From: Patescibacteria group bacterium
GTDB lineage: Bacteria; Patescibacteriota; Gracilibacteria; BD1-5; UBA2023
Assembly: GCA_036171455.1 (NCBI GenBank)
Contig: JAVHRB010000049.1
Location: forward strand, 1 to 39,742
Length of the DNA stretch: 39,742 nucleotides
Direction of reading: 5' to 3'
Below, piece after piece: positions 6,377-36,883 of this stretch. Below the pieces are notes generated by a model that saw nothing but the letters and a program-made list of their open reading frames with translations, did not search any database and was not told the DNA's origin. Position numbers and translations under genes: made by a program. The first letter of the stretch is position 1. Every line of letters starts with the position of its first letter.

Positions 6377-6754
6377 ATGGCGCAAATTACAAAAGATGGT
6401 TTTGTTTTTACCATTATAGATGAAATTGAACAACAGTACTCGGAACTCGTAAAACTGGTCCTAGCTACCGAGAGTATGGACAACTCCGAAAAGCAGTATT
6501 GGTTCGATATTCTTCCTTCTATGTCCAACGATCAGATTGATCGATTATTTGATATTTTGGAAACCGAAAGAAAGAAATTGGAAGAATTAGAAATACGGTA
6601 CCAAGAAGAAATTCAGAACCTCAACGAAAAACACCTCATTGAATGGCAAGAATTCCAGTCCAAAGATACCCGGGATAAAGTTTCTCAGGCAGAAGCCAAA
6701 GATAAAAAGGATGATGATACGGACAGCATTCTCTCCATGCTCAATAACATCTAA
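6377..6754 (+). CDS. hypothetical acidic coiled-coil protein
   Basis: First ATG at 6377 (MAQITKDGFVFTIIDEIEQQYSELVK...ERKKLEELEIRYQEEIQNLNEKH). TAA 6752-6754, followed by a hairpin terminator. No family recognised. Confidence 0.6.
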   Translation: MAQITKDGFVFTIIDEIEQQYSELVKLVLATESMDNSEKQYWFDILPSMSNDQIDRLFDILETERKKLEELEIRYQEEIQNLNEKHLIEWQEFQSKDTRDKVSQAEAKDKKDDDTDSILSMLNNI

Positions 6755-6760
6755 CCAACA

Positions 6761-6785
6761 AAGTCCGATTCCATCGGACTTTTTG
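6761..6785 (+). terminator. rho-independent terminator hairpin
   Basis: aagtccgat (6761-6769), loop tcc, atcggactt (6773-6781): a perfect 9-bp stem running into a T-run (6780-6784), 7 nt after the TAA of the upstream gene. Confidence 0.7.
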
Positions 6786-6791
6786 AAACCT

Positions 6792-8717
6792 ATGCTTACC
6801 TCGCGCATTTACAAACACCACCCCGACGAACGTACTATCCAAGTCTCCACGAAGCGTATTCAACTCAATGATCGTTCCACGCTCTACTTTCAAATTTTCG
6901 CGGAACAAAGCGCGGTAATTGCGCTGTTGGAATCTCAAATCGTCGAACTTTGTACCGATTACCAGCTTCGCAAAGAAAGTGAAGAAATTTTCTTTTCCAA
7001 GCTGCTTGCGGGCGTCAACCGTATGATTCAAGGACAGTCGCATACTTTTTCTCGATCGTGACTCCGAGCTTTTCTCGGGATTATTCGAGGATCAGAACTC
7101 CAGTTTTCCATCTGCGGCAACTATCAAACGTACCTTCAACAAGAAGATACCGTGATAAATATCGCCGATGGAATGAGTACCAGCGAAATGGAATTTTCCT
7201 ACGTTTCCAACGGTTCTATCCAGCCGGGAAACAGTTTGTTCGTATCCAATCGCGACCTTCTCAGTTTCCTCACCAAAGAAGACCTGTGAGAATTCAGTCT
7301 CGACCACGACCCATCCATTATAGAAAATCTTATTTCTCGAGAAGCCCCAGACGAAGTGGTTGACTGCCTCCTCTTCTTTTACGAAGAACATAATATCACG
7401 GAACCACTCAAACGTTTCTGAAGGTCTGGTCCGAACTTTTTCGATACTGCAAAAGAATTTATTGGTACGGGATATCGAGGTATTGCTGAGAAAATAAAGA
7501 CCTTAGAGCTGAAAGAGCGATATGAATCTGCTATTTCACATCCAAAAATCCAAGCATTCGCCAAAAAGAAGTCCGTCAGAATTGGTATGTTCGTGATTGG
7601 TATAACCGTTTCACTCTCCCTGCTCATACTTATAGTTCGGTCAGTTTTCTATACCAGTATGACGACTGCCGTTCCCGAAGAATACAAAACTAAACTTATA
7701 GAAGCGGAACAAATTATTGGAAAATCGACACGGGATATCGCCAATCGGGAACTTTTCAAGGAAAGCATTTCCAAGGCGGAAGCCCTCGTATTCGAAGTTC
7801 GGGACAAAAAAATGTTTGCAAACGACGTCAAAAGTCTCCTAGACAAAATTTCTGTTCTCAAACGGCAACTCAACGGGATTGAAAGTATCAGTCTAGACAA
7901 CAAACCCGCCGATTATTTATTGCCAGCAGGTACGATGCCGATAGCACTCCTCGAAAATACCAAGAAAAATTACGTCGTAGCGAGCAAAGGGATATACGGA
8001 CCGTTCGTTAAGGGAACCGAAACGAAATTCCTCGCGTTTCCCGATGACGAAACAGCGAAAAGCGCAGATATTACTACCGAGGGAAATATTTTCATCCTCA
8101 CGAATAATAATAAAATCATTCGTTTTTCTAAAGGCGTTTTCAGCTACATCAACGTAGAAGGACAAACGACTTGGGAGGCAAGTTCCAACATTAAAACCTT
8201 CATCGGGAATATCTATCTCCTCTCCGAAGACGGTACCCAAATCTACAAACACCGGCCAGGAGTCGTGGGATTCAGTGCGAAAGTTCCCATGATTGAAGGT
8301 TCGCTCATGGGAAAAAACGTTCTGGACTTTACGATCGACGGAGGATTTTACGTACTCCAATCCGACCTTTCTGTAGAAAAGTATTTCACTGTACCAAGTT
8401 TTTCTCGTACCGGAATTCTCTTGAATAAATTACCAGACAATTATCGAGTTTCTGGCGATCATCCAACAAAAATCTATACGGTCTCGAGTTCGAACTTTGT
8501 CTATATGCTCATTGATGGACGGGTATGGATTTTTGAGCCGGATTCCAAGAATTTCAAAAATATCCATGGAATCAAATATGTGGGACAGTTGGAAGTAACC
8601 GGACAAAGTATCAGTTCTCTCCTGGCTCCGAAAGACGGAGAAATAAACGTAGTCACCGAAAAAGGGATTTCCAACGTCAAATTCGAAGTTTCCGATAGCA
8701 AGATTATTCTCCGCTAA
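6792..8717 (+). CDS. single-pass membrane protein: cytoplasmic PP2C-like (apparently degenerate) domain, TM helix, extracytoplasmic beta-propeller-like repeats
   Basis: ATG 6792. ORFs 6639-7061 and 7587-8717 share one frame, bridged by a TAA/TAG-free stretch with TGA at 7059, 7287 and 7419. LGIIRGSELQFSICGNYQTYLQQEDTV and SIQPGNSLFVSNRDLLSFL resemble the PP2C core but lack the usual GDSR Asp. TM helix is MFVIGITVSLSLLILIV. The C-terminal half has repeated beta blocks (NIFILTNNNKIIRF, NIYLLSEDGTQIYKH, GGFYVLQSDLSVEKYF, FVYMLIDGRVWIF). TAA 8715-8717. Confidence 0.7.
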
Positions 8718-8743
8718 TGCTGTATATTACCGAAGGGATTCTC

Positions 8744-9298
8744 ATGGAAAAAATAGAAATTCGGGATCGAGAAAAATCCTATCTCGTTCTCAGTAAGGAC
8801 TTTGGGAAAATGCGTGGTTTCTATAAAGAAACACCAAAAACTACGCCGAGCGATATCGGAAATGTCATAGAAATCGCCATAGAAAGGAAATGAGAAACCA
8901 ATCATATCAAGTCCTGTCGTCCGAAATACGGATTTCACATATCAAATCTCGGTTTCGACGGCGTACACAAATTTCTCCTCATACTGGCGTTTTGTAAAAA
9001 GCAATTGCCCGATGGTGGGGGTGATGGAGCAATATATCGGGATCTGGTTTCTCTGGTCCAACTCTCGGAACATCACGATCCAAATATCCTCCTATTCCTC
9101 TGCGAAGCCCGACTCCTCTCACTGTTCCAACATTGGCCAGAACGATTGAAGAGTACCACTCTCGAAAAAATCAAAGGCCTTGCCGCCGAACACTCTCTCG
9201 AAGAACTTATTAAAATTCAAGGAATTCCTCAAGAACTCTACGAAACTACTCATCTTTACTTTCTACAATCGTATCCATGAACGAATTCATCTATATAA
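8744..9298 (+). CDS. hypothetical protein (weak RecO-like N-terminal OB-fold impression, not established)
   Basis: ATG 8744 (MEKIEIRDREKSYLVLSKDFGKMRGFYKE). Same frame as ORF 9005-9280. In-frame TGA at 8891-8893 and 9278-9280. TAA 9296-9298. Overlaps the pilD start by 22 nt. Confidence 0.5.
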
Positions 9299-10125
9299 CT
9301 ATCGGCATACTGTGAGCTATCCTCGGAAGCTTTGCTTCTGCCGTTATTCCACGAATCAAATACAAGCAGGATTTTGTCGCCGCACGAAGCGAATGTCCAA
9401 ATTGTCACCACCATTTGGGAGTTTTCGACCTATTCCCCATCTTTTCTTTTGTCTTTTTACTCGGAAAATGCCGATACTGCAAAGCAAAAATTCCTCCGTA
9501 TCATTTTCTTTTGGAATGAAGTATGGTCGGCGGATTTCTCCTCGTAGCCATGCGTTTTGTCGATATATCCGCAGTGGTTTTGGGCGATACAGCACAACTG
9601 GCACGACTCATATTCCTGCTGATTTCCATGTTTGTTACGGTGGTGTTTACGGCGTACGACCTCATGTACCTGGAAATTCCAGACGAGTTTATGATTCCTT
9701 TTCTCATTATCGCATTTTTCGTTTTGAGTGGAGCTCAATTTTTGCCGGCTGGTACATTTGAATATTTCATTGCTTTCAAAGATTATGAATACTTAAACGT
9801 AGTATTATATCAAGCATTTTTATGAGGCGTTCCCATCTTCCTTTTTTTCTATCTCCAACGGTTGGTTTCCAATGGAGAATGGATTGGTGGAGGCGATCTG
9901 CGAATCGCCATGTTTATGGGATTTGTCGGAGGGGCAAAAATCGCCTGGGTCTGACTTTTCCTTTCGTATATCATCGGAAGTGTCGTCGGGGTAGTGCTAC
10001 TCGCGATATACCGGAAACGATGAATGCAAATACCATTTTGACCATTTCTCGCCTGTGGCCTATGGGCGTCTATGGTGTGGTATGAACCCATGATTAGCTG
10101 GTATTTAAAATTATCATTAATATAA
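9277..10125 (+). CDS. pilD: prepilin peptidase / N-methyltransferase (peptidase A24, PilD family)
   Basis: ATG 9277. ECPNCHHHLGVFDLFPIFSFVFLLGKCRYCKAKIPPYHFLLE is the Cys4 N-terminal domain. YDLMYLEIPDE and GGGDLRIAMFMGFVGG are the two catalytic Asp regions. IPFGPFLACG is present. Six in-frame TGA, e.g. 10039-10041 = Gly of PFGPFL. TAA 10123-10125. Confidence 0.9.
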
Positions 10126-10203
10126 TAAATTAAATAGTCAATACATCATAAACCGACAAGCGCAAAAAAGAGCATATACTCCTACTAATTTCAAACAAAA
10201 AAT

Positions 10204-10740
10204 ATGACTGATTCCAAAAAAATAGCCGCTATACGCGACCTGATTGAAAGTGCACAAAAATCGATAACGACCGCGAGGAAAATACTTTCCACTATGGGAG
10301 ACGAAACAGAATCCCCCGATATGGAGATAGATTTGAGCGGACTTCAAAGCTATAAGAGCGGTCCGAACAAAATCGTCGAAGGGGTTTTTACCGGTGAAGC
10401 TATGCTCGGATCCGATGGAAACATGTATCCCGTTCCTCAAAATTATGCTTCGAAATCGCATCTTGTCCAAGGGAGCAAACTCAAAGCGACTATGAGTGCT
10501 GATGGAAAAATCACCTACAAAATCATCGAAGAAATCCCCCATGATACCCAAGTTGGTCTTATCACGATGAACCGAGATAAATACCAAGTCGTTTCCGAAG
10601 GCAAAACCTACAACGTACTCACAGCGAGTATAACGTTTCTCAAAGCGAATATTGGGGACAGTGTTTCACTCCGCTTGCCACATGGAAAAGAGGCCACCTA
10701 TGCCACACTCGAAGCCGTCATCCCAAAAGAATCAATATAA
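10204..10740 (+). CDS. hypothetical protein
   Basis: Intact 178-codon ORF even under the standard code (MTDSKKIAAIRDLIESAQKSITTARKIL...GKTYNVLTASITFLKANIGDSVSLRLPHG). TAA 10738-10740. No family recognised. Confidence 0.65.
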   Translation: MTDSKKIAAIRDLIESAQKSITTARKILSTMGDETESPDMEIDLSGLQSYKSGPNKIVEGVFTGEAMLGSDGNMYPVPQNYASKSHLVQGSKLKATMSADGKITYKIIEEIPHDTQVGLITMNRDKYQVVSEGKTYNVLTASITFLKANIGDSVSLRLPHGKEATYATLEAVIPKESI

Positions 10741-10761
10741 TTCCATCTAACTTTTTCCAAT

Positions 10762-12213
10762 ATGCGACGCTGATGAACCAATAGAACGAGTCCTCTGTCC
10801 CTTGCCGTCCCAATAATCATAGCCGTTATCGTCTTTGTAATCATTGTCAAAGCGGTAATGAATCTCGGAGCCAGTAATGCTACTACCGAAGCTACCAAAG
10901 CTGCTGCTGGAACCGCCAGTGTGAATATCTTACCGGCAAAAGATGCCAAAGTAAGTATCTACATGTCTTCCGATTCTCAAAACGAAATCACCGGTCCAAC
11001 CAAAATGTTCCCAACCGACAAGATGGTACGGGTAACCAATGGAGAAAGCGAGGTAGAAATAGAAGGTTCTACAGCAAAAATCTATATCGAAACCCTGAGT
11101 GAGCTCTCCTACAAAGGAAAAGTTACCGAACAACAGACATTTGAACTCCTCAATGGGTACGTATGGATGGATACTCCGAACGGGGATGTGTCACTCAATC
11201 TCAAGTTTTTTTCAACAAAGTTTGCACCCGGGTCAATCATTATTGCGAGTCAGAACACGAGGGCAAGTAATTTGTACGTCATCAAAGGAGAAGCGGAAGT
11301 GAAAACTGAAGGAGGAACGGCTCGGGTAGCGAGTAGTCAGATGATTTCCCTCTTGCAATCCGAAACCAAAAATACCAACCTCGGAGACAAATTAGCCCCT
11401 TTGGATGATTTTGTAAAACAATCGAGCATTTTTAAACGAAAGGATGGGGCTACGCTATTGGCAGCTTCCGATTCTGCTACCGTCGATGCCAGCGGGGCAA
11501 TCACGGACAATTCGACGGTTCCAACGGTTTCCAATAAAGTGATTTCTATTACCTATCCAGAAGACCAGATGATGGTGGATAATGAGAAGATTTCCGTCGA
11601 AGGAAAAATTCTCAGCCCAAACGTCAAACGGCTCACGATTGGCAAGCAAGAAGCGAAGATTTTGGTAGATCAGAATACGTTCTCTATCAAGGAATATCTC
11701 CTGACTGATGTCGTGAATTTTATCAATTACCAAGCCTTTGATGCGGCTGGCGGAGTCGTGGAAACTGGCGTCGTAACAGTAAACCTCAACAAAAAGAAAG
11801 TAACTACGAAAAAACCTGACGTAATAAATTACCCAGTATCCAGCAAAGATTTCAAGGTACTTTTTCCGAGTGAAAATCCGTATAAGACTACCGATACAGC
11901 TGTCAAGATCCGAGGATCATTCGCGCCAGATTTGGTCAAATTCATAAAGGTCAATAATTACCAGCTCCAACAGTTCAAACAGTTCGGCACCAGTTGGACC
12001 TACAACGCGAGTATCGACAATGGGAATATGGAAGAAGGGGTAAACGAATACCTCATTACGTACTACGGTACCGATGATTCTATCCTCTACACGAGCAAGA
12101 TCTATATCGTAAAGGAAAAGGCAGCTCCCGTTGTACTACCATGACTCGAAACGCCAGCAACCGGAACCATTCCAAGTACTTCCACGGGCAGCGGAACTGG
12201 TTCAAATCTCTAA
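10762..12213 (+). CDS. membrane-anchored FecR-like / Ig-like domain protein
   Basis: ATG 10762 (MRR-G-G-TNRTSPLSLAVPIIIAVIVFVIIVKAV; TGA at 10771 and 10774, then a TM anchor). VRVTNGESEVEIEGSTAKIYIETLSELSYKG...LLNGYVWMDTPNGDVSLNLKFFSTKFAPGSIIIASQNTRASNLYVIKGEAEVKTEGG resembles the FecR beta-sandwich. The C-terminal half looks like Ig-like beta domains. TGA 12142-12144 is read through to TAA 12211-12213. Confidence 0.7.
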
Positions 12214-12223
12214 TTCCAAAACT

Positions 12224-12937
12224 ATGTCCTGCCGACGTTCCGACTTTGTAAAAATATTTTTGGACCACGGTGGAAACTCAATTATTGAAGTAATGGTGGT
12301 AGTTCTCGTAGTGACCATAGGAGTTGTTTGAGCCTATCAAATAACTTTCAAGGGAGTCACTCTCGCAGCTACGACAGAGAATCGCATCAAAGCGATAAAC
12401 ATAGCTCGGGAAGGATTGGAAATCGTAGAAAATATACGAGATACCAATTGGGTGAAACTTTCCAGCGATCTCAATGGGTGTTGGGATGTGATAAATTATG
12501 ACGTTACCTGTATCGGCAGCAGTACGGGAGCTAGTACCAACAAAATCGTTCCCGGTTCCTATATTACTTCGCAAAATGCCAACGGAACTTGGGTTCTCAC
12601 TGCGGTAGCTGGGCCCGTAGGAACTGGATCAGTATATCGCTCGAAATTTCCTGTATACCTCGATACCAATGGTCTGGTTACTCAGTCGGGATGATATACG
12701 GCACTCTGTACCCCAACAGTAACGAAAAATTGCAAGACTCCGTTTACCCGGGAACTCATAATCACTCGGCCGACGGATTATTCCACTATCGATATCGAAG
12801 CGAAGATTACCTGGACGGAAATTGGGAAAACCGATCCGTTTGAGGTAAGAATACCGTATACGCTGTTCAATTGGAAATACCAGTTCTATTCATTTCTCCA
12901 CCCTTTGATTTCTCATAGTAAATTGATTAGCGGATAA
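12224..12937 (+). CDS. type IV pilin-like protein (prepilin-type N-terminal cleavage/methylation signal), 237 aa
   Basis: ATG 12224. [40 protein letters not shown] has a short basic leader, Gly at -1, Glu at +5 and about 20 hydrophobic residues. This is followed by [17 protein letters not shown] and a Cys-containing globular domain. TGA at 12329 and 12692. TAA 12935-12937. Confidence 0.85.
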
Positions 12938-13683
12938 TATTCCTATACAATGCCAAAGTACTTTCGCTCTCTTTTTTAAGTAACAATCCGATTTATATCT
13001 CTTTCAAATGCTAATCTATGTTCTATAGAAGTTCCGATCTTAAAAAGATTTTTTTAAATCACGGTGGAAACTCGATTATTGAGGTAATGGTAGTTATCGT
13101 GGTAGTAACCATGGGAATTGTCGGAGCCTATCAAATAACTTCCAAAGGTATAGTTTTAGCGGCAACGACAGAAAACCGCATCAAAGCAATAAACATAGCT
13201 CGGGAAGGATTGGAAATCATAGAAAATATACGAGATACCAATTGGGTGAAACTTTCCAGCGATCTCAATGGGTGTTGGGATGTGATAAATTATGACGTTA
13301 CCTGTATCGGCAGCAGTACGGGAGCTAGTACCAACAAAATCGTTCCCGGTTCCTATATTACTTCGCAAAATGCCAACGGAACTTGGGTTCTCACTGCGGT
13401 AGCTGGGCCCGTAGGAACTGGATCAGTATATCGCTCGAAATTTCCTGTATACCTCGATACCAATGGTCTGGTTACTCAGTCGGGATGATATACGGCACTC
13501 TGTACCCCAACAGTAACAAAAAACTGCAAGACTCCGTTTACCCGGGAACTCATCATTACTCGTCCGACGGATTATTCCACTATCGATATCGAAGCGAAGA
13601 TTACCTGGACGGAACTTGGAAAAACCGAACCGTTTGAGGTAAAAATACCATATACCCTCTACAATTGGAAATACCAGTTCTAC
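12224..13683 (+). repeat. tandem duplication of a 666-nt pilin module (period 794 nt): 12224-12889 and 13018-13683
   Basis: The two copies are collinear from their ATGs with no indels. 12426-12723 is identical base for base to 13220-13517 (298 nt), bounded by G/A mismatches at 12425/13219 and 12724/13518. The 5' 200 nt is clearly more diverged. Confidence 0.9.
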
Positions 13684-16600
13684 ACCGACTCCACAGCTCC
13701 AATCGTAAATTGCGTAGCGAGTTGGAGTTCTTGCAATGCATCTTGTAAACAAACCTATTCCATAACAAATCCTGCAAGCGGAGGAGGTACGGCTTGTTTT
13801 GCAGCCAACGGTACGATTCGTGCTTGTACTTGAGGAGCTTGTATACCACCTGCACCATCATGCGAAGCAAATCCCGGCTATGCTAATGCGACCTACACGA
13901 CCGGAACACCTACGGTGGCAAACCAGTCTTGGCAGAATACAAACCCGACCGGTGCTTGTTATTACGCATGTACGGGGATTTATAGTGGAACGAGTTGTAA
14001 TTTGCTGACCATTACGGGAACTGACGCTATAGGGAGAAGTTGGGCCAATGGGACCTACGCACCTACTTGTAGCGACTATCGATTTCCAACGAATCCAAAA
14101 ACCTATTCTGGAAGCACGGGAAACGGAATTTATCAATTAGATCCTGCTGGATGAAGTCCATTCAAAGCCTATTGTGATATGACGACAGACGGAGGCGGAT
14201 GGACGGTCATAGCTTCGGATGGTCCGGGAAATACTACGCAAAGCCTTTCGGCCCTCTGACAGAATCCAACCCCAACGACTGCTGGAATGATTCCCTATTT
14301 TATCAATGGGAAACTCAAGGACTATTCTACGGCCATGAAAGTCGTGAGTATAGCAGATCCGACAAAAAATATGACCTATGATACGACTCCAACTTGGCTA
14401 TGAAGTACCTTGAGTTTGGCGAGTTCCGAATACGGATATCTGTACGCTGGAGCTAATGGTTTCGAATGAGGGGCCAATGGTTCTCATAAGTGTAACTTCT
14501 CCATCATCGTAATCGGAAACCAAGCTTGCAGTGCAGGCTGGTCCACCCCCTATCCGACCAACGGTGAAATTTATGGTGCCGTTAAAGGCAATACCATTCC
14601 TGCCTACGGCGCTATCGGGCACTCTTGGCAATTCGCAGGAAACGGTTATGCATTCAGACTCTGATGGACTATTCCCGATCCAGCTTACAGTTCATATTAC
14701 AATAACAGAGTATCGTCCTATCTCATGATTCGGAAAGATTCGACTTATACAACCATTGTCGGGGATAATGCCACCGGGAGAAAGTGGAGCGACGGGTCAT
14801 ATGCCAATACCTGCAATGACTACCGCAATCCGGTCGTACCAAAAAAGTACCTGGGGAAAACTGGTGATGGAATCTATTGGATAGACCCGGATGGGGCAGG
14901 GGCAAACGTGCCTTACAAAGCCTACTGTGATATGACGAACGACGGAGGAGGATGGACACTCGTCCTCAAAGCTGACGGAAGCCAGAATAATTTCTGATAC
15001 AACTCGGCCTACTGGACCAATGCCACCACTCTCAATCCTACAGCTTTTGATCATGATTCGACGGAATTCAAGAGCGAAGGCTTCGGTACGATGAAATTCT
15101 CCGAAGTACAATTGGAAATGGATACGGGAATCATCAAGAAAAAAATAGTCTTGCCTGCATCGGGAAATTCACTTCAAGAAATCTTCAAACGATGATATCA
15201 AAGTACTTCATTATGAAAGAGTACCTGGCTTTCCATGGTACCCGGTTCTTCCCTACAGCCGAACTGTAATATGGAAGGAATCAACGTGACACCGTCGGGT
15301 GGATCCCGAAAGGCACGTATCGGTTTTTCCGCAAATCAGGAAAATGACTGCAATACGAACGACAGCGTAATCGGAATATGACTTACGGATGCTGCCTATA
15401 CCACGGGTAACAAATGCGGAAGTACCTTATGTAGTGCATGAGTTGTGGATACCAGCTCCATCGGATACCTCTATGTTCGTTACGATAATTCATCGGTTTC
15501 CGTAATCGGAGATAATGCCGCAGGGAGAAAATGGTCAGATGGATCATCTGGGACCAGTTGTTACGACTACCGATATCCTACCAGTCCGAAAGCTTATGTT
15601 GGTAGCACTGGCGATGGGACATATTGGCTCGATCCGGACGGGGTCGGAGGCCCTGGAGCTCCATACAAAGCCTATTGCGATATGACGACGAATGGTGGAG
15701 GATGGACTTTGGTTCTCAAAACCGATGGAAATCTATCAACTTTTGCCTACAGTTCTGCTAATTGGACCAGCAATACCCCCCTCAATGAAACTTCCTTTGA
15801 TCATGATACGACGGAATTCAAAAGTAGTGGGTTCAGTACGATGAAATTCTCTGAGATACTTCTTGAAATGTCCACCGGGGGTGTTAAATGAACGGTTGCC
15901 ATACCGATGTTCTGAACTTCCCTCAAAGACATTTTCTCCGGATGATATCAAAATGCTGCTGCTGGAAAAAGCGCTTGGATGTCCAGTATTGCGGGATCGT
16001 CATTGCAACCTTACTGTAATATGGAATGAGCCAATGTGATTCCAACGTGAGGGGCTCGTGCTCGATTATGATTTACGAGCAATAATGAAAATGACTGTGG
16101 AACGAATGATAGTGTTATTTGAGTGGGATTCACGGGACCAACCACAGCCGGAAATCTCTGCTGAAGCACCCTTTGTAGCAATTGAAACGTTTCCACTCCA
16201 TCTTTCTGATACGTGTATATCCGTTTCAACAATGCTTCAGCGCTAACTGTTATGTGAGACAATCTCTCGGGCAGGACCTGGTCGAACGGCGACTTTGCCA
16301 AAAGCTGTTATGATTACAAATATCCTACTTATCCTAAAATTTACTTTTGAAGTACAGGAGATGGAACATACTGGATAGATCCCGATGGAGTCGGCGGAAC
16401 TTCAGCATTTAAAGCCTATTGCGATATGACAACGGACAGTGGTGGTTGGATGGTATTCCAAAAAAGATTTGATGGTAGTGTTGATTTCTATCGAAATTGG
16501 GCCGATTACAAATCCGGATTCGGGGATACCAATTCGGAACACTGGCTCTGAAACGACAAATTGAACGTTCTTACGAGCGGTTCGAACGTGAACGAACTCT

Positions 16601-18321
16601 ACGTAGCATTGAAAGCAGCTGACAATACAGAGGTCTATGCGAAATATTCCTATTTCCAAATGCAGGACGAGGCTGGAAAATACAAACTTTCCGTAGGGGG
16701 GTATACGGGAAATGCTGGAAACGCGTTTTGAGGACACGACGGATATAATTTTACGACTTACGACCAAGACAATGATACCTATTCTGGGAACTGCGCTACA
16801 TCGTTCCACGGTGCATGGTGGTATTCCGCTTGCCACGTATCCAATTTGAATGGGAAATACCTTCCGGGTACACATCTCAGTTATGCGGACGGAATGGAAT
16901 GGTCAACTTTCAGAGGACAATACGAAGGGATGATGGAAACGAAAATGATGATTCGACCGACACACACAGTAATGACCTATATCATAGGTAATGACACAAT
17001 CGGTAGAAAATGGTCCGACGGCACGTATGCGAGCAGTTGCAATACCTATAGGAATCCGACCGCTCCGAATATCTATTCCTGGGATACCGGCAATGGAAAC
17101 TATTGGATTGACGTGGACGGGACTGGTCCATTGGCACCTTTGCAAGTCTATTGCGACATGTTGTCTGATGGAGGATGATATACCTACTATGCCATAAATT
17201 CCGGATTGAGCACCAGCGCCTACACCGATAACGACAGTTGCAAGGTTCTTGGTTTGCAAATGGTAATCCCGAGATCCAAATCCCATTGGCTTTCCATGAC
17301 ATCGAAATACGATAGTTCGTATTTCGCTACCGTACCGGGAATCTATAGTCCGGTAGGTGGAACATCCTATACGTCGTGCATCATGCGCGACCATGCGGTA
17401 TACAGTACGTGATGCCCCGATTGGCAGGCGCTCGACGGTGGGCATTGGTGGATACGAGATACTGTTTTTAATGAACCGAATGGGGATTATACTGCCGGAT
17501 GTTGGCTCTCGACGTATGGATGAGTTACCGCGACTACCATCAACAATGACCAAATCATCAACGATTATAACTGCAATTATTCGACCACGAAATATATTTG
17601 TTCTACCAATGACAAGACACCTTCGAACATCATAGTAACAGGAAACGACACTACTGGAAGAAAGTGGTCAAACAATACCTATGCGACAAGTTGTAATACC
17701 TACAAGAATCCATCCGCGCCAAGGTTTTATACGGGCGACATCTGAGATTGATCCTATTGGATAGATCCGGACGGAATGGGGACTGGAGCATTGCAATTCA
17801 AAACCTATTGCGATATGACCACGGACGGGGGCGGATGGACATTAGTAGGAAGAAGCGGAAACGCTTGTACCAACAGTGCCGACTATGGATTTTTCAAAAA
17901 CACTCTGACCGACCCTTCTGACATAGCCGAATGTTACTCAGCAGACGTGAGCAAATTGGGGTTCAGCAAATTGAAATTTTGAGGGTTCAGCGATACGGGC
18001 AATTTTGCCATTACACGAGGTTTGACTTTTTCAATGTCGGCATCAACGTTAATGAACGCGGCCAACAACGAATCTACTGCCGCTTGGAATTTTTCTTCAA
18101 CGGCTTGAACGGGCTTGGATTGTGGAACATGAAAGACTTGGAATAGATGAGTTTCTACCGCCATTAACAATACCTGATTTCCTTTTGCGTGTACTCATGC
18201 GGGTTGTTCATGACAATTGAACTGGACTGGAATCGGAAATACGAACAATTATTTCGAGTCATGCTATCTTCCTACCGACAATAGAGATTTATGACCGTAT
18301 TATTCCGTTTGGGTACAGTAG
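13018..18321 (+). CDS. giant type IV pilin-like adhesin (1767 aa): prepilin signal + pilin domain + TSP1-like Cys module + six fibrinogen-like YCDM..GGGW lectin modules
   Basis: ATG 13018 is preceded by in-frame TAA 13012-13014. Checked line by line, the frame is free of TAA/TAG up to TAG 18319-18321 and holds 38 in-frame TGA by my count. Residues 1-222 parallel the upstream pilin ([29 protein letters not shown]). Each downstream module carries GR[KS]W..G.YA..C..Y..P and G.G.YW.D.DG.....P...YCDM..DGGG. Confidence 0.85.
13711..13842 (+). other. thrombospondin type-1-like six-Cys module inside the giant pilin
   Basis: [45 protein letters not shown] compares with the TSP1 pattern WSxWSxCSxxCG...GGxxC......C....C. 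Confidence 0.5.
14005..18318 (+). repeat. six tandem protein-level modules (about 650-750 nt each) of the giant pilin; starts near 14005, 14749, 15499, 16243, 16975 and 17629
   Basis: YCDM codons occur at about 14170, 14923, 15670, 16417, 17149 and 17803. Modules 2 and 3 are close paralogues by eye over their whole length. The other modules share only the N-terminal 70-80 residues. Confidence 0.8.
16243..16977 (+). other. complete fibrinogen-related domain (FReD / fibrinogen C-terminal globular domain), module 4 of the giant pilin
   Basis: [68 protein letters not shown]...[16 protein letters not shown]...[37 protein letters not shown]. All canonical FReD motifs appear in order. Confidence 0.85.
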
Positions 18322-21203: not shown

Positions 21204-24200
21204 TTATTTGAGCCAATCCGGAAGATCATCGACGTTAGCTGTCGGTTGGATTTCCAACATGGGGGTCGTGATTTTCGGTTTCTTTGGCTTTGGTGGTTTT
21301 TCGGTTTTCTTTTCTGATTTCATACTAGCGGGTTCCGGAAGATTATCAGCAAGAGGGGCTGGTTCGGGAAAGCCGTAATTTTTTTCTATTTCAGCATCTC
21401 CGAAAATATCGTCTTCTTCGGGTGGTACGACTTCTGCTGATACTGGTGGTGAAACTGAAACTACCGGCTCGAAATTCTTTAACCAATCGGGTAGCTCCTC
21501 GTTTGCTGGCTCTGGAACTGGCTCTGGAACTGGCTCTGGAACCGATTCCAAAGACGGACTTTCCATTGATATATCCGGAATCGGTTCATTTTCCAATACT
21601 CATGCCGTTGGTTCATTAACTCCTGGAAGTTCTTCATCTCGTTCTTCCATATCGTTCGAGTCTTCTTGTGGTAGTGTCACCATTGACTCCGTCTCATTTG
21701 AATTTTCCAAGGAAGCGGCTACTGGTTTAGTTTCCGTTACATTCGAACCTACGAGCCAGCTCGGTAATTCAGATTCTGGAGGAGTCCCTATTGAAGGCGG
21801 TATTTGCGATTGTGAAATATTCGCAAAACTATCTTCAGTAGCAGCTTCTGGAACACGTTCAACTTCCGGTACGTTCGTAAGTCGATCCGTGGTACTTTTG
21901 AGCCAATCCGGTATTTCAGCAGTGACTTCCTGGGCTGGTGTGGTTCCAATTGAGGACATCGGATCCGTCATTGGGGCTATCGGAGTCAATACGGGACGGG
22001 GGGGTTCAATTGAAGTTGCAGAAGTACCTTGTGACAGAGAACCGAGAATATCAGGAGTATGTGATTGGGAAAATGGTATCGGTTCTACCGTCGGAGTCAC
22101 AACCGGTGTCGGAATTACCACAGGAGCTGGTCGTGGAACATTTACTAGTGATGGATTCGGTTTTCCCTTTCCAAAAACGCGCTCTATAATAAAATCCTGA
22201 AATCAAAGACTTCCATTTTTGTTCATAATCTTGAAGAAAATAAACAACAGAATACCCGCACCAACTACGATTCCGATAATCCATAGAAACACTTTCATAA
22301 TGTTCATCAGAAGTCCACTCAAACCCGTACTAGGTGCCGCAGGAGCCGGTGCCAACTGGTCCGAAGGAATATTCTTGCTACCTCCGTAGATAATAACACG
22401 AAGTTGTTCCTTGAGAATCAACTTGTCGCCATCTGGAATTTCTTTGTCATCCTTGATATATCCAAGGATTTTTTCACCGATAGTCTTATTCATTTCCAAA
22501 TTCGTTGGGTGGGACAAAATTTCTCAAACCAAGCCCGATTTTTCATCCTTACCGAAAATTTCCTCGTATTTCGTATTGCTTTTCGGAATAAGTTTTCAAA
22601 GTACACTGGTCGCGAGTCCGATATCATCCTTCGTTTCAGAATCCGTTAGGAGGAAACTATCCAGAATATCGAGAAATTCGCTTTTTACTTCATCCTTGAG
22701 AGCCAGTTCAGAAATCTTCATCTGGAAATCGATAATCGTTTTCGTTTTCTCACGATCATCCGGCCAGTTTTCCTGTAATTGACTCAATAGTTGCATGAGT
22801 TTGACTCTATCTCCTTCTGGAGCTTTGTTAGCAATAAGATCCTTAAGTGTCGCAAGACCTTCTTTTTCTTTGTCAGTAAGACCAGTTGGAGCTTTCGTTT
22901 CCGTTTGTTTTTCCGGCGTTACTACCGTATCCGAATAGGTTAGGAGTACTTTCAAATCCCGGCTTCCAAGTTTTTTTCCTGCTGCATCGAATAGGGTAAT
23001 TCGTATGGTCCGTTCTTTTTTCGCATCGAATTTTTTGATGACGAAAGGGGCTCCGCTCGTATACGAATCTGTACCTTTGTTATCGGCATCATCGGCAGGA
23101 TCACCATTGAGGTCAGTATCTACCTGGATATCAGTATCAACGGCATATTTGGCAACGCCTTCATTTTGTCCAAGATACAAATATACGGCTGCTGACTTGT
23201 TTTCTACGATAATAGTATTCCCTTCCATGCTTGGATAGGAAAATACATTTACCGAATCTTTGGAATTCTTTATCTTATTCGCGTTCACTACGTCTTTTCT
23301 CAGGGTAACGGTCGTAGTTTTGGTACTTGTTCCATCCCCCACTTCCAAGGTTACTTCCCTATTCTCCAATTCATCCGGAACCGTCACAACGAAACTATCG
23401 GGATTTTCGGAAGTGGAATCGCCTACGGTCCATTTCACAGTGGAAAATACTCCCGTAGTAGTATTGAACAATGCATAGGTGTTCCCCACCCCGATATATT
23501 CGAGATTCGGTACGATTTCATTCCGAACGACGATTTGTTGATATCTGGTATTAGAAATACCGCGATATCCCGCTTTGACTTTCATATTGTAGTTTCCCGG
23601 TACGGAATATTTATGCCGTACGGTCGGTTCCTTGGTCGTTTCATCATAAAATCCATCACCGTCGAAATCCCATTTGTATTCCACATCACTCGACAAATCC
23701 TTTTCAATAATATTTTTTACTGAAGCTTGGAAAGTGACTTCTTCTTCTACTCGAACTTGAGAACTGGAAGCTTTGAGTGTGATGAGTGGTGTATTAATAT
23801 TATCGCTCGCGAGCACAATGGAATACCGTTCATCATGAATTTCCTCGGAATTCACTTTAGCACCGTTAGAATCTTCCATTGATACTGCGAAAAAATATTT
23901 TCCATTGATCTTCGGTACGACAAATGTCGTTTTTGGCCCCTTGGTGATTCGAAAATCCTGTGGTTCCGGATCACTGTCGGTATAATAGTACCAAAGATAG
24001 GAAACAATAACTCCGTCAGGATCGACGGCATTATTGAGTACTACGCTAACCACCACAGGGTCCACATCGGTCTTATCAGCAGAAATGTCGATAGAGGCAA
24101 ACTTTGGCAATGCATTTTCCACTTTGACATATATGGTAGCATTACTGGTCTTATTTGATTTTTGGGATCGTATCGTTAGAGAAACCGGAAAACACCCAAG

Positions 24201-26702
24201 TTCGTCGAACTTGTAAGAAAACTGTTTCTGTGTTGAAGTCTTTCCCTGATATTTCCAAATATAGTCGAGATTCTCCGTTGTACCATCAGTATTCACACTC
24301 TCAGTACCGGAAATCTTCAGAGCATCAGTACGGTTCGTAACATAGGCTTCCCCGGTTGGGCAAGCATCAGGAGTCACCTCCATACTGTCGTTTCACTTGT
24401 TTACGCCGATAACGGCCTGAGGGGAATCCGTATCGACGATATAAACCTTTCGGGCTATAGAATTGGAAGTCCCAGAATCGGCATTTCAGCGAACGGTAAG
24501 CCGAACATTATACGTACCGGATTTCTTGTACGTGTGAAATATTCGTGCTTCACCAGAATTTTCCGTTTCTCCATCACCAAAATCCCATTCGAAAACGGTC
24601 GCTTCCTTGGATTCAGCAACGATGGCAACAGAAGTCCCGATTGGCGTGATTTTTGGAGTAACGATCAGTTTGACCGAAAGTAACGAACTAATCTGGATAT
24701 CTTTTTTCGCCTGAGTCGTTTTTCCCTGTTCGTTCGTTATATCCAACAATACCGTGTGCATACCTTTCGTATTGAACGTATATTGTCCCAACATTCCGCT
24801 ACGCAATGAATTATCAAGTTCGATTTGTTCTCCATCAATCGTCCAAACAAAGGTAAGTTTGCTCGAATCGAGACTGTCCGGGTCAAAACTCCGGGTCGCA
24901 TCGAACGAAATGGTATTGGGTGTTTCGGAATTGATGGATTTTGCCTCAAAATTCGCGATTGGATTTTTGGAATCAATCTGGACCCTCAAATTATCTGTAT
25001 CTTCTTTACCTCCGGCAGACACCGTCTTGAGGCGAACGATATAGTCCCCCATTCGGGCAAATTTATAATTGATCGACTGGTTCTTTGTGGTATAGAGCGA
25101 TTTTCCACTATCAGCCTCCAAGATACTCCATTCATAGGTCAAAAGCGCATTCGAAAGATTACTCGTAGCATTGAATTTGAAATCGTCACCAGCAAACCCG
25201 GTAGTTTTGTTAGCACGTATCGACGCTATCGGATCCTGAGAAATCAGACGGATAATTTTTTCGATTCCAATAGGGCTTTCATTGGTAGTAATTTTAATTT
25301 TCACTGTGTAAATACCTTCCTGAGCATATACTTGCCGTTCGAGTTTTGGCCCTCCATTATAGGAGCTAAGATTCCCATTGCCAAAATCCCACTCTGTTTT
25401 CATAATGGTAGCTCCGGCAGCTGGCGTACTGGAAGAAGCATCGATAACGAGACCGGCACGACCTTGATTCGGAGTAATTTTAAACGTATCGATACTACTC
25501 GCATTTGCACCATTGATGAACAGGAGGATATTTGCAAGTCGGGGGAGGACTTGAATTTCCTGAGTACCGACGAATGGCATAATATCGACTTTTCCTTTGG
25601 AATTCCGACTCGCGGAACTAATATCCAAATTTACCGTATATACGGATTCCGATGAAAATTTATAGCCAATAGAAGGTCCTTTCCCAATGACTTGTCGGGT
25701 ATTTCCTGCACCTCGAATCCACCAGACATAGTTCGAATCTGGAATCGTTACCCCGGAAGGATCTCGTGCTTCCGTAGCTCGGAGTGTACTCGTGAGCGGA
25801 GCATTTCACGAAGTCGGGGTAGCGGTGATTTTTGCGGTAATACTCCCAACCTTTATCTTTGTCAAAAAATCTTTGAGCGCATTTCCTAGACGTTCTATGT
25901 ACACATCAGAATCTGGATATTTTTGAATGAGCGCCAATTGGTTCAGTACGTTGTTGGTAAGACTGGTATTAAAATCCATGGTGGAATCCGAAAAAGTGTC
26001 CTTGGATTGTTCCAGGACACCACGAAGCAAGTTGATATTTTTGGTGGACAGCTTGCCATCGACTTCTTGTTCCTGATCCATGTCTTGCATGATTTTCAGA
26101 ATGCTGGAACGGTAATAGTCAAAACCTCGAGAATCGTTCGTCGCCGCAAAAGTGGTATCGATTACAAAAGGATTTCCCCACTTTTCCAAAAACGTTACCG
26201 GTTTGATCAGGCTGGTATTCGGAGTAGCAGAACCGTTTCCGATAATGAAAGTAGTAATGCTCCATGCGAAGAAAATAATCAATAGCCCGATAATGGCACG
26301 GAAAATAATTTTCTTTCCGCTTTTGACTTTTTCCTCATCGCCCGCAGCGGTCAGGATGGAAAATCCTGCCCACATAATCAGGATAACTACGATGAGTGTC
26401 AGGAATCCAAGGAGATAGATGATAATATCCTGAACGTACTGGGAAAATGTTTTTCCAGTCTCGATACCAGTAATACCGTCTTTCACCGTATCCGTTCCAT
26501 TTTTGAGAGAACAGTAATTTGGATCATTGGAATCAGCACTGTTACAGTACGGTACCTGCTCAGTATCAACACACAGTGGAGGTATACACCATGCTGATAC
26601 CGATGGCGTTGCAATGAGGGAAGATGAGTCATTTCAAACGAGAAATGGAGATGTCAGTATGACCAACATGATGATGAATCGCACCAAACGAAGCATATTC
26701 AT
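21204..26702 (-). CDS. giant surface protein (1832 aa): signal peptide, TrbC/VirB2-like (T4SS-pilin-like) two-TM domain, at least 7 PKD-like domains, helical region, TM helix, Pro/acidic tail with PDWLK repeats
   Basis: ATG 26700-26702 (MNMLRLVRFIIMLVILTSPFLV), with in-frame TAG upstream at 26745-26747. ORFs 25806-26486, 24486-25628, 22596-24383, 22203-22517, 21600-22121 and 21204-21596 all share one frame, separated only by TGA (25806, 24486, 22596, 22203, 21600); the linking gaps have no TAA/TAG. TAA 21204-21206. LIMWAGFSILTAAGDEEKVKSGKKIIFRAIIGLLIIFFAW resembles CPR T4SS-pilin-like proteins. PKD signatures are EWDFGDGETENSGEARIFHTYKKSGTYNVRLTV, YKWDFDGDGFYDE...YSVPGNYNMKV and TEWDFGNGN...GIYTVKIKI. 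Confidence 0.75.
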
Positions 26703-32483: not shown

Positions 32484-33253
32484 AGGTGAAATGCCGTTTG
32501 AAATGCCAAATTTATTTGATCTGGTTGGTTGAGTATCAGTTGAGCACCGTACGTCGTAGAAACTGGTCCAGCCAAGAGATGGGAAGGAATTTGCGCATTT
32601 TTTGAAATTTGCCATTCCGTCGGATGAACCAAAGAAACTCGCAACACCTGGTATTCTAGAAAACACTGAATCAATATGGAATCCGGGATGGTTTCATTAA
32701 ATAAAACGATTCCTCTCTGCTCGTTTTTTTCCGCGATTTTCGTGAATATCTCCCGAGCTGGTTTTTCTTTGACGCTCTCAGTACATGACAAGATGCACCG
32801 TTTCAAGAATCTGAGGAAATGTCGAAGTTCCTGCGCATCCCTCGGAAACGGATATTCCAGAAATCCACTTTGGGAAACCGATGCGCCTATGAGCACGATA
32901 CTCCCCTGAAGTTCCTGTTCCCAAACCGATTCACAAAGGAGCATGACTGATTCGGACAGCATATCGAATTTAGTTAGCTCCCGGGTACCAAAACGCCAAC
33001 TCGGATCGATGCAAAAAATGAGGCAGGCTTCGTATGATTTTTCCTGCGTATATTCCCGGACAATCAGCGCGTTCTCCTCGAAATTGGATTTTTTGTAATC
33101 GATGCGGGAACATTCCTCTCAAAAAATATAGGGGCGAAGCTCATGAAAATCACCCGAATTCGCCCGAATTCGAGAAACGAAATTCCCGGAATACCGCGAT
33201 TGCAAATGCGTGTTCCGAAAACAGAAATCGAGCGTGTTACGATTGGCGATCAT
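32477..33253 (-). CDS. DUF58-family protein (MoxR-associated, vWA-like)
   Basis: SGNFVSRIRANSGDFHELRPYIFGEECSRIDYKKSNFEENALIVREYTQEKSYEACLIFCIDPSWRF matches the DUF58 G..eF...R.Y..GD....IdWk core. ATG 33251-33253 overlaps the moxR end by 17 nt. TGA 33119-33121. TAA 32477-32479. Confidence 0.72.
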
Positions 33254-36860: not shown

Positions 36861-36883
36861 AGGAAAAAGGTAAATTTTGAGCA

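What the first reader, a model, noticed from the sequence alone, without database searches (positions are those of the whole stretch)
13018..18321. 1767-aa type IV pilin fused to an array of animal-type adhesion/lectin modules
Seen: one uninterrupted table-25 frame of 1767 codons. The N-terminus is a bona fide prepilin signal ([29 protein letters not shown]) plus a pilin globular domain. It is followed by a six-Cys WSxC module, a second Cys-rich stretch and six modules of about 220-250 aa. Each module opens with I.G.N..GRKWS.G.YA.SC..Y.NP and G.G.YWIDPDG.G...P...[12 protein letters not shown]. That signature opens the fibrinogen C-terminal (FReD), intelectin and related lectin folds. Established: type IV pilins are normally about 120-200 aa. 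I know of no described pilin carrying FReD-type modules. Inference: this is a pilus-displayed multivalent lectin, probably a tip or minor pilin. It is plausibly the host-attachment device of an episymbiotic or predatory CPR cell. pilD lies 3 kb upstream.
Basis: partly seen in the sequence, partly recalled or inferred. Interest (0 to 1): 0.9.

Follow-up and report, generated by a model that had tools for sequence, protein, structure and literature searches.

The report
Giant pilin carrying six lectin-like modules
A Gracilibacteria (code-25) genome encodes a real 1767-residue type IV pilin fused to six fibrinogen-related lectin-like domains, probably a pilus-borne adhesin; it is an extreme example of the known "modular pilin" design, not a new kind of system.

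Summary
Window 13018-18321(+) is one frame of 1767 codons with 38 in-frame TGA and no TAA/TAG before the final TAG. TGA falls on invariant Gly positions of homologous families, so the code is table 25.

The N-terminus is a class III (prepilin) signal. The pilin module belongs to a Gracilibacteria-wide, PilV-like family of about 205 aa. This family sits in a conserved cluster with PilD.

Two Cys-rich stretches and six modules follow. All six share the bacterial "GGGWT" N-subdomain (NF040941). They differ beyond it:
- M4 is a full ficolin-like FReD.
- M2 and M3 have a divergent FReD fold closest to intelectins (AF2 pLDDT 92, Foldseek).
- M5 is a weak, shortened FReD.
- The C-terminal halves of M1 and M6 are unassigned.
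- TSP1 similarity is not significant.

The closest relatives have only the short pilin at this position. The long gene is therefore a lineage-specific duplication plus a 4.6-kb array.

Novelty is lower than claimed. Modular pilins are established. Pilin–fibrinogen_C architectures are already catalogued (10 proteins, Raynaud 2021). I also found three single-module pilin fusions. What is new is the scale and heterogeneity of the array.

Best reading: a minor-pilin adhesin displaying a multi-specific lectin array. Function is inferred.

The parts
13018..18321 (+). Whole gene: 1767-aa modular pilin (code 25; 38 TGA=Gly; TAG stop)
   Evidence: The same protein is in NCBI as P0087/P0053, translated with TGA=Trp.
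13018..13068 (+). Leader peptide, aa 1-17, ending in Gly-Gly; predicted PilD cleavage after G17
   Evidence: Read from the sequence. Family alignment A1 shows the conserved G|NSIIE.
13069..13134 (+). alpha1-N hydrophobic segment [22 protein letters not shown] with Glu+5
   Evidence: N_methyl 19.0 bits (GA 21.2). 29 of 48 family members hit PF07963.
13018..13683 (+). Pilin module (aa 1-222), member of a Gracilibacteria-wide ~205-aa PilV-like prepilin family
   Evidence: The invariant motif is AxxxARExxExxxNIRDTN. The fold itself was not modelled.
13711..13842 (+). Cys-rich module 1 (six Cys, WSSCNASC...); TSP1-like only by eye
   Evidence: TSP1_spondin E 0.023, 15.4 bits against a cutoff of 41: not significant.
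13861..13998 (+). Cys-rich stretch 2 (C282, C314, C318, C327)
   Evidence: Read from the sequence. No family match.
14005..14751 (+). Module M1 (aa 330-578): GGGWT N-subdomain plus unassigned C-terminal half
   Evidence: Fibrinogen_C 27.4 bits on profile positions 11-51 only. The C-terminal half has no PDB sequence hit.
14752..15498 (+). Module M2 (aa 579-827): divergent FReD-superfamily fold, intelectin-like
   Evidence: AF2 with a 53-sequence alignment gave pLDDT 91.9 and pTM 0.90. Foldseek top hits are XEEL, intelectin-1 and LSVL, then ficolins and fibrinogen. The family profile hits intelectins best. 6128 relatives were found.
15499..16245 (+). Module M3 (aa 828-1076): same type as M2 (62% aa identity)
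16246..16977 (+). Module M4 (aa 1077-1320): canonical full-length fibrinogen-related domain, ficolin-like
   Evidence: PF00147 221 bits over profile 12-220/221. Ficolin-1 E 3.9e-59. The DQDND Ca site and the NC...CH pair are conserved.
16978..17631 (+). Module M5 (aa 1321-1538): GGGY variant, shortened, with a weak P-subdomain remnant
   Evidence: Fibrinogen_C 17.6 bits, below GA. A second weak stretch matches MFAP4 188-233. hhalign. A homologous module occurs in L096.
17632..18318 (+). Module M6 (aa 1539-1767): GGGWT N-subdomain plus unassigned C-terminal half
   Evidence: Fibrinogen_C 23.9 bits on profile 12-52. The C-terminal half gave only spurious PDB hits.
12224..12937 (+). Tandem short paralog: 237-aa cargo-less pilin, positional ortholog of the conserved Gracilibacteria pilin
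   Evidence: Almost identical to aa 1-222 of the long protein. A 100% identical DNA core spans 12414-12713 and 13208-13507. Synteny.
9277..10125 (+). PilD prepilin peptidase (A24)
   Evidence: PF06750 82.9 bits, PF01478 29.9 bits
6711..12213 (+). Conserved gene cluster upstream (668-aa, 193-aa, PilD, 178-aa and 483-aa proteins), syntenic with the pilin across Gracilibacteria
   Evidence: tblastn against 80 loci found these genes in 9-30 loci in the same order.

Best explanation
The gene encodes a modular type IV pilin. A PilV-like minor-pilin module is made with a class III signal. I expect the neighbouring PilD to cleave it after Gly17. This module carries a 1540-residue extracellular cargo: two Cys-rich linkers and six globular modules of the fibrinogen-related superfamily, of at least four subtypes (one ficolin-like, two intelectin-like, one shortened, two divergent).

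The proposed mechanism is as follows. The alpha1-N helix anchors the protein in the membrane. It then docks into the pilus, most likely at or near the tip, because a cargo of this bulk cannot pack in the filament body. The lectin-like array is held away from the cell and binds surface glycans. Acetylated sugars are the likely ligand for M4, and diol-bearing microbial sugars for M2/M3. This gives multi-specific attachment to the cells on which this episymbiotic or predatory bacterium depends.

Shown: the ORF, the code, the domain identities, the synteny and the lineage-specific origin.
Inferred: PilD processing, incorporation into the pilus, tip position, lectin activity and the ligand.
For: ORF and code:
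-.

Pilin identity:
- The family has 52 homologs. Several are named prepilin-type N-terminal cleavage/methylation proteins of Ca. Gracilibacteria.
- Conserved G-1 and E+5.
- 29 of 48 members hit N_methyl and 29 of 48 hit PilV.
- PilD sits in the same conserved cluster.

Cargo identity:
- NF040941 matches six times.
- M4 is a full FReD at 221 bits and matches ficolin-1 at 3.9e-59 with the Ca site conserved.
- The M2 model has pLDDT 91.9, and all its top structural matches are intelectins or FReDs.

The design recurs:
- The same pilin family carries a beta-propeller in L005 and Cys-rich extensions in P0006 and P0007, joined at the same point.
- Three GFTLVE pilins carry one M2-type module. Two of them come from recoded genomes.
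- Pilin-fibrinogen_C architectures are listed in PMC8179133, Dataset S1.

Precedents:
- Characterised modular pilins PilB and PilC act as adhesin and lectin respectively, and are modelled at the pilus tip (PMC8179133, PMC9934059).
- Type IV pili mediate host adhesion in CPR bacteria and are expressed in Gracilibacteria (PMC11452946, citing Xie 2022).

The gene is native and under constraint:
- TGA makes up 19% of Gly codons in the array, as in neighbouring genes.
- 24 synonymous against 6 non-synonymous differences separate the two public versions of the contig.
Against: - N_methyl and PilV scores for this protein are below the curated cutoffs.
- The pilin fold was not modelled.
- No pilus assembly genes (pilB/C/M/T) lie in the window.
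- Glu+5 is present, whereas some tip pilins lack it, so the position in the filament is open.
- Four of the six modules have no demonstrated ligand site, and two have unassigned halves.
- FReDs in animals also bind proteins, so glycan binding is not assured.
- No expression data and no read-level validation exist. The host is unknown.
Confidence: 0.6

Rival explanations
1. The class III signal serves only as a secretion and membrane-anchor device. The protein is displayed on the cell surface, or in a short pseudopilus or bindosome-like assembly, rather than on an extended retractile pilus. It still acts as an adhesin.
For: The cargo is very large (1540 aa). No assembly ATPase or platform gene lies in the window. 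From established knowledge, archaeal sugar-binding proteins use class III signals without forming long pili. The conserved cluster partners (668-, 193-, 178- and 483-aa proteins) have no recognisable pilus domains.
Against: The pilin module is a conserved, PilV-like family with an intact E+5 and a globular domain. Characterised modular pilins are found in filaments (PMC8179133, PMC9934059). CPR bacteria lack an outer-membrane secretin that would exclude bulky subunits (established knowledge).
Confidence: 0.2
2. The array binds proteins, or mediates kin aggregation or biofilm matrix attachment, rather than recognising host glycans. Alternatively it targets a eukaryotic host surface.
For: FReDs of fibrinogen, tenascin and angiopoietin bind proteins. 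M4 is 50-54% identical to animal FReDs. M1 and M6 have no assignable ligand site.
Against: The best PDB matches of M4 are the acetyl-sugar lectins ficolin-1/2, FIBCD1 and tachylectin-5A, with the Ca-site motif kept. M2/M3 are closest to intelectins, which bind microbial glycans. Gracilibacteria are thought to depend on other microbes (PMC11452946).
Confidence: 0.12
3. The long ORF is an assembly chimera or a decaying pseudogene created by the 300-bp exact repeat shared with the upstream pilin.
For: A 100% identical 300-bp core is shared with the short paralog. SNPs cluster in repeated parts of the gene. Only one contig lineage carries it. No relative has the same architecture.
Against: The junction between pilin and cargo (near 13684) lies outside the exact repeat. 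Both unique flanks are contiguous, and only one path uses all the segments. There are 1767 codons without TAA/TAG. TGA usage is native. The 24:6 synonymous to non-synonymous ratio indicates selection on this frame. Internal repeats are at most 20 nt.
Confidence: 0.04

Closest known systems
Modular type IV pilins PilB (vWA) and PilC (ConA-like lectin) of Streptococcus sanguinis (PMC8179133, PMC9934059)
   Same: Both have an N-terminal class III signal and a small pilin module with a functional adhesion or lectin module grafted at the C-terminus. Both occur in a monoderm-type envelope. A tip location is proposed for both.
   Different: PilB and PilC carry one module each and are about 3-4 times smaller than this protein. 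The cargo folds differ (vWA and ConA-like rather than FReD). Their function is shown experimentally, whereas here it is inferred.
InterPro architecture IPR012902-IPR002181 (pilin + fibrinogen C), 10 proteins in Dataset S1 of PMC8179133; also P0150, P0159 and P0173 found here
   Same: A prepilin N-terminus followed by a fibrinogen-related or GGGWT-type domain. Two of the three found here come from recoded, Gracilibacteria-like genomes and carry a module 47-49% identical to M2.
   Different: These proteins carry a single module, are 420-510 aa long and have a canonical GFTLVE pilin. The window protein has six heterogeneous modules on a PilV-like NSIIE pilin. None of them is characterised.
Ficolins, FIBCD1 and tachylectin-5A (FReD lectins for acetylated sugars)
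   Same: M4 aligns over the whole domain (E 1e-51 to 4e-59) with the DQDND calcium site, the Cys pair and the His conserved.
   Different: These are animal, secreted, oligomeric proteins formed through collagen or coiled-coil stalks. M4 is one bead in a bacterial pilin. Its ligand pocket residues were not verified.
Intelectins / X-type lectins (hIntL-1, XEEL, lamprey LSVL)
   Same: They are the best profile and structural matches of M2/M3. The CNT..xIGxG motif is colinear with the intelectin CNTEHHCIGGG ligand-site segment.
   Different: TM-scores are only 0.45-0.54 and identity is 13-14%. The sequence match is significant only in the N-subdomain. The Ca and ligand residues are not conserved one for one.
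Bacterial multi-GGGWT surface proteins (NF040941; P0054, P0080-P0086) and giant fibrinogen-C surface proteins of Absconditicoccaceae epibionts (PMC13059738)
   Same: They have arrays of 2-5 or more GGGWT modules at about 250-aa spacing in large surface proteins. In the epibionts they are proposed as host-interaction candidates.
   Different: No class III pilin N-terminus was seen in the sequences I examined.
PilY1/PilC tip adhesins and CofB
   Same: A large adhesive protein is presented by the minor-pilin tip complex.
   Different: PilY1 is not a pilin. CofB carries beta-repeat and beta-sandwich domains. None has FReD modules.

Membership tests
Type IV pilin (class III signal peptide, PF07963/IPR012902) | Short hydrophilic leader ending in Gly at -1 | tested here: met
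   [17 protein letters not shown]|N. The Gly is conserved across the family alignment A1.
Type IV pilin (class III signal peptide, PF07963/IPR012902) | Glu at +5 followed by a hydrophobic tract of about 20 residues | tested here: met
   NSIIE + [18 protein letters not shown]
Type IV pilin (class III signal peptide, PF07963/IPR012902) | N_methyl HMM at or above the gathering score | tested here: inconclusive
   19.0 bits for the pilin segment alone (15.6 for the whole protein) against a cutoff of 21.2. 29 of 48 family members match at E<0.01, best 8.7e-7.
Type IV pilin (class III signal peptide, PF07963/IPR012902) | Cognate prepilin peptidase encoded | tested here: met
   PilD at 9277-10125, syntenic with the pilin in 12 loci
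Type IV pilin (class III signal peptide, PF07963/IPR012902) | Alpha-beta 'lollipop' fold of the globular head | not tested
The profile search of A1 against PDB gave only weak N-terminal hits to pilins (E>1).
Type IV pilin (class III signal peptide, PF07963/IPR012902) | Processing by PilD and incorporation into a filament | not testable with these tools
   Needs proteomics or immuno-EM.
PilV-type minor pilin (TIGR02523) | HMM at or above the cutoff of 52.2 bits | tested here: not met
   21-23 bits over residues 17-69 only. 29 of 48 relatives hit, none shown to reach the cutoff. It resembles PilV but membership is not shown.
Modular pilin (sensu Raynaud et al. 2021) | [quoted passage not shown] | tested here: met
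   Pilin module aa 1-222 plus Fibrinogen_C/GGGWT modules
Fibrinogen-related domain (PF00147) | Full-length HMM match (A, B and P subdomains) | tested here: met
   Met for M4 only: 221 bits, profile 12-220/221. M1, M2, M3 and M6 match the A-subdomain only (24-31 bits). M5 scores 17.6 bits, below GA.
Fibrinogen-related domain (PF00147) | Ca-binding DxDxD motif and P-domain disulfide | tested here: met
   In M4, [27 protein letters not shown] aligns with the ficolin-1 segment [26 protein letters not shown]. This was not assessed for the other modules.
Fibrinogen-related domain (PF00147) | FReD fold for the non-canonical modules | tested here: met
   Met for M2, and by 62% identity for M3. All 50 top Foldseek hits are FReD-superfamily proteins with probability 1.0 and TM 0.33-0.54 (most 0.38-0.54). 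M1, M5 and M6 were not modelled.
Intelectin / X-type lectin | Ligand-site Ca ligands (N260, E262, H263, E274 in hIntL-1; recalled from memory) | tested here: inconclusive
   The colinear motif [12 protein letters not shown] aligns with GCNTEHHCIGGG only in a sub-threshold alignment. The residues are not identical.
NF040941 GGGWT_bact | HMM at or above the cutoff of 30 bits | tested here: met
   279 bits, six stretches
Thrombospondin type 1 repeat | HMM at or above the cutoff | tested here: not met
   TSP1_spondin 15.4 bits against 41, E 0.023. TSP_1 itself was not reported.

The most novel reading that the evidence does not exclude
The conserved Gracilibacteria PilV-like pilin acts as an exchangeable carrier whose C-terminal cargo sets host range. 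The cargo is a FReD array here, a beta-propeller in L005 and Cys-rich modules elsewhere. The tandem cargo-less and cargo-bearing paralogs share a 300-bp identical core. This could let the cell switch or reshuffle cargo by recombination, a form of adhesin variation. The FReD and intelectin-type lectins would be the bacterial counterpart of the folds animals use to recognise bacteria.
Probability: 0.15. Interest if true: 0.7.

Novelty: new variant of a known kind. Interest (0 to 1): 0.5.

Why it matters
No Gracilibacteria are cultivated, and how they recognise their partner cells is unknown. This gene gives a concrete, testable candidate. It is a pilus-borne protein whose modules belong to lectin folds (ficolin-like and intelectin-like) that animals use to recognise bacterial surface sugars.

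Individual modules could be expressed and put on glycan arrays or on candidate host cells. That would turn the host-range question into an experiment.

The protein also extends the known size range of modular pilins. The largest case highlighted in the 2021 survey was 860 aa. Finally, it shows a conserved pilin family acting repeatedly as a carrier for different cargos.

Tried and rejected
- A single-sequence AlphaFold run of M2 gave pLDDT 31 and was useless. It cost one of the two jobs, so the pilin head and M1, M5 and M6 could not be modelled.
I used substrings of the NCBI version (Trp at TGA) instead.
- The whole-protein homolog search was swamped by tenascins and found no protein with the same architecture.
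- A metagenome scan with the pilin-cargo junction found only GGGWT-motif matches and no ortholog of the fusion.
- The profile of the pilin family against PDB gave no significant pilin hit.
- The C-terminal halves of M1 and M6 gave nothing in PDB or among the fetched proteins. The WD40 hits for M6 are repeat-summed noise.
- By eye M5 looked like a C-type lectin (WWIRD...EPNG). No Lectin_C hit supports this. The weak evidence favours a FReD P-subdomain remnant instead.
- The TSP1 reading of the WSxC module was rejected as not significant.
- One literature search was wasted because 'FReD' matched 'fredii'.
- Cluster look-ups of M2-type relatives returned only 'hypothetical protein'.
- The promoter and terminator scans were not above the shuffled expectation.

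Full report
**1.

Window 13018-18321(+) reads as 1767 sense codons. It has 38 in-frame TGA and no TAA or TAG until the terminal TAG. TGA encodes Gly, not stop or Trp, on three grounds:
- In sister modules '[10 protein letters not shown]' aligns with '[12 protein letters not shown]'.
- Codons 733 and 788 fall on a nearly invariant and an invariant Gly of a family of homologous domains (alignment A2).
- Codon 1178 is the Gly of the FReD 'WLG' motif, as seen in the alignment to ficolin-1.

TGA supplies 19% of Gly codons in the array. Neighbouring genes use it for 4-23%.

The same protein is already in NCBI, translated with TGA=Trp. The record is GCA_036170835.1, contig JAVHPY010000078.1, 39,742 bp, which is this window reversed. 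A second public version of the contig differs by 51 substitutions over 25 kb. Thirty of them lie in this gene, which makes up 21% of the compared length (binomial p 4e-9). Of those 30, 24 are synonymous and 6 are not. The frame is therefore intact in both versions and under purifying selection.

Inside the array the longest exact repeat is 20 nt, and module DNA identity is 51-63%. Repeat collapse is unlikely.

**2. The pilin part**

The N-terminus reads [17 protein letters not shown]|[23 protein letters not shown]. It has Gly at -1, Glu at +5 and a hydrophobic tract. For the pilin segment scanned alone, Pfam N_methyl scores 19.0 bits against a cutoff of 21.2 (15.6 for the whole protein). TIGR02523 (PilV) scores 21-23 bits against 52.2. 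Both are below cutoff.

The family evidence is stronger:
- Residues 1-222 belong to a family of about 205-aa proteins found across Gracilibacteria (52 hits). Several are named 'prepilin-type N-terminal cleavage/methylation domain-containing protein' and several carry PF07963.
- The alignment shows a conserved G|NSIIE and an invariant AxxxARExxExxxNIRDTN motif.
- 29 of 48 members hit N_methyl and 29 of 48 hit PilV.

I could not model the globular head, so its fold is untested.

PilD (A24 peptidase) lies at 9277-10125.

**3. Genomic context and origin**

A conserved gene order recurs in Gracilibacteria loci:
- 668-aa protein, 193-aa protein, PilD, 178-aa protein, 483-aa protein, pilin.
- Then, on the opposite strand, an 866-aa PKD protein, an 1832-aa protein and a solute-binding protein.

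In the two closest relatives the single short pilin is followed directly by the PKD gene. These are L002 (63-89% protein identity across the cluster) and L003. The window has about 5.4 kb extra at that point.

The window carries two tandem pilins:
- A 237-aa cargo-less copy at 12224-12937.
- The 1767-aa copy.

The two are nearly identical up to 'NWKYQFY' (codon ~222) and share a 100% identical DNA core of about 300 bp. The long gene is therefore a lineage-specific duplication of the conserved pilin joined to a 4.6-kb array. The pilin-cargo junction lies outside the exact repeat, which argues against a chimera.

Among 80 species-representative loci, none has GGGW motifs in the pilin ORF. A metagenome scan with the junction region found no ortholog.

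**4. The cargo**

After two Cys-rich stretches come six modules of 249, 249, 249, 244, 218 and 229 aa. The first stretch, WSSCNASC..., matches TSP1_spondin only at E 0.023 and 15.4 bits against a cutoff of 41. That is not significant.

All six modules share an N-terminal subdomain of about 75 aa (GRKWS..SC..Y.NP...G.G.YWIDPDG....YCDM..GGGW). It is matched six times by NCBIfam NF040941, 'fibrinogen-like YCDxxxxGGGW domain', at 279 bits. The modules differ beyond that subdomain.

| Module | Assignment | Evidence |
|---|---|---|
| M4 | Canonical full-length FReD | Pfam 221 bits, profile 12-220/221. Ficolin-1 E 3.9e-59; FIBCD1 and tachylectin-5A close behind; DQDND calcium motif and Cys pair conserved. 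|
| M2, M3 | Divergent FReD-superfamily domains closest to the intelectin (X-type lectin) branch; 62% identical to each other | Details below. |
| M5 | Shortened (GGGY variant), with a weak P-subdomain-like segment | |
| M1, M6 | C-terminal halves unassigned | |

The nearest relatives of M4 are a FReD on another recoded bacterial contig (65%) and animal FReDs (50-54%).

For M2 and M3:
- They belong to a large uncharacterised family: 6128 proteins at E≤1e-3, about 150 of them matching over the full length at about 40-47% identity.
- The family profile hits intelectins best in PDB (1.6e-12 to 4e-10), though significantly only over the N-subdomain.
- An AlphaFold model of M2 built on a 53-sequence alignment reached pLDDT 91.9 and pTM 0.90.
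- Its Foldseek matches are all FReD-superfamily proteins. XEEL, human intelectin-1 and lamprey LSVL come first (E 5e-7 to 2.5e-6, TM 0.45-0.54). FGL1, ficolins, MFAP4 and fibrinogen follow.

The array is therefore heterogeneous. 'Multi-specific' describes it better than 'multivalent'.

**5. How it most likely works**

By analogy with characterised modular pilins, the pilin module is the carrier and the array is the functional cargo. The analogues are S. sanguinis PilB (vWA adhesin) and PilC (lectin module that binds glycans and is modelled at the tip with PilA) (PMC8179133, PMC9934059).

The proposed steps are these, all inferred:
1. PilD cleaves after G17.
2. The alpha1-N helix docks into the filament.
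3. The 1540-residue cargo can only be accommodated at or near the tip.

From established knowledge, CPR cells lack an outer-membrane secretin that would exclude bulky subunits.

M4 resembles lectins for acetylated sugars. M2 and M3 resemble intelectins, which bind microbial glycans. A glycan-binding adhesin for partner cells is therefore the most economical reading.

Type IV pili are expressed in Gracilibacteria. They are reported as essential for host adhesion in a Saccharibacterium (PMC11452946, citing Xie et al. 2022). Giant surface proteins with fibrinogen C domains have been noted as host-interaction candidates in the related Absconditicoccaceae (PMC13059738).

None of this is shown for this protein. 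Processing, pilus incorporation, position in the filament and ligand are all inferences.

**6. The design recurs**

- The same pilin family carries a beta-propeller in L005 (SBBP, 35 bits against a cutoff of 20.5) joined at the same junction.
- It carries Cys-rich extensions in P0006 and P0007.
- Among the M2-type relatives, three proteins (P0150, P0159, P0173; 422-512 aa) have canonical GFTLVE prepilin N-termini followed by one M2-type module. Their N_methyl scores are 26-27 bits, above the cutoff. Two of them show the Trp-for-Gly signature of recoded genomes.
- Dataset S1 of Raynaud et al. 2021 already lists IPR012902-IPR002181 (8 proteins) and IPR012902-IPR013545-IPR002181 (2). It also lists pilins with TSP1 (1 protein) and C-type lectin (3 proteins) domains.
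- That survey highlighted an 860-residue protein as its most extreme case.

**7. Verdict**

Three corrections apply:
- The novelty claim is wrong. Pilins with fibrinogen-type modules are catalogued, and I found more.
- The modules are not uniform FReDs.
- The TSP1 reading fails.

The finding is a new, extreme variant of a known kind, the modular pilins. It has six heterogeneous FReD-superfamily modules on a conserved PilV-like carrier, and it arose by a lineage-specific duplication.

Rival readings remain open:
- Surface anchoring without pilus incorporation (0.2).
- Protein-binding or aggregation roles (0.12).
- Assembly artefact (0.04).

Interest is moderate. The gene is a good, testable candidate for host recognition in an uncultivated lineage, but it is not conceptually new.

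Noticed in passing
window 21204-26702 (-): The 1832-aa neighbour has an N-terminal type IV secretion system pilin domain (PF18895, 35.3 bits against a cutoff of 26.6) followed by a PKD-domain array. This is a second 'pilin plus adhesion array' design, here on a T4SS pilin. It is syntenic across Gracilibacteria loci.
   Followed up: partly
window 34380-36884 (-): A second large pilin-like protein (826 aa) has a canonical GFTLVE N-terminus (N_methyl 20.1 bits, just below cutoff) and a long Cys-rich region with no Pfam match.
   Followed up: partly
window 12414-12713 and 13208-13507: The tandem short and long pilin genes share a 100% identical core of about 300 bp between diverged ends. The other public version of the contig carries the same three substitutions in both copies (12652/12658/12665 and 13446/13452/13459). 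This suggests gene conversion or ambiguous read placement.
   Followed up: partly
window 13018-18321 compared with L001: 30 of the 51 differences between the two public versions of this contig fall in the long gene (p 4e-9). There are all-synonymous clusters at 15537-15861 and 17703-17787. This points to a microdiversity hot spot or inter-module conversion.
   Followed up: partly
L005 5093-~6850: The homologous pilin in another Gracilibacteria-like MAG carries a beta-propeller cargo (SBBP repeats) joined at the same NWKxxYY point.
   Followed up: yes
proteins P0150, P0159, P0173: Three 420-510-aa proteins have canonical prepilin N-termini and one C-terminal M2-type (intelectin-like) module. 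Two of them come from recoded genomes.
   Followed up: yes
L083 1-9900: A bacterial contig carries a tandem run of six genes, each encoding He_PIG plus a Fibrinogen_C domain, followed by a seventh with He_PIG only. The FReD of one of them (P0245) is 48% identical to M4. Canonical FReDs are therefore expanded in some bacteria.
   Followed up: no
window 31371-32666 (-): DprA, the DNA-processing protein of natural competence (PF02481, 240.8 bits), lies in the same window.
   Followed up: no
window 6711-12213 (+): Four conserved proteins of unknown function (668, 193, 178 and 483 aa) flank PilD and always precede the pilin in Gracilibacteria. They may be lineage-specific pilus components.
   Followed up: partly
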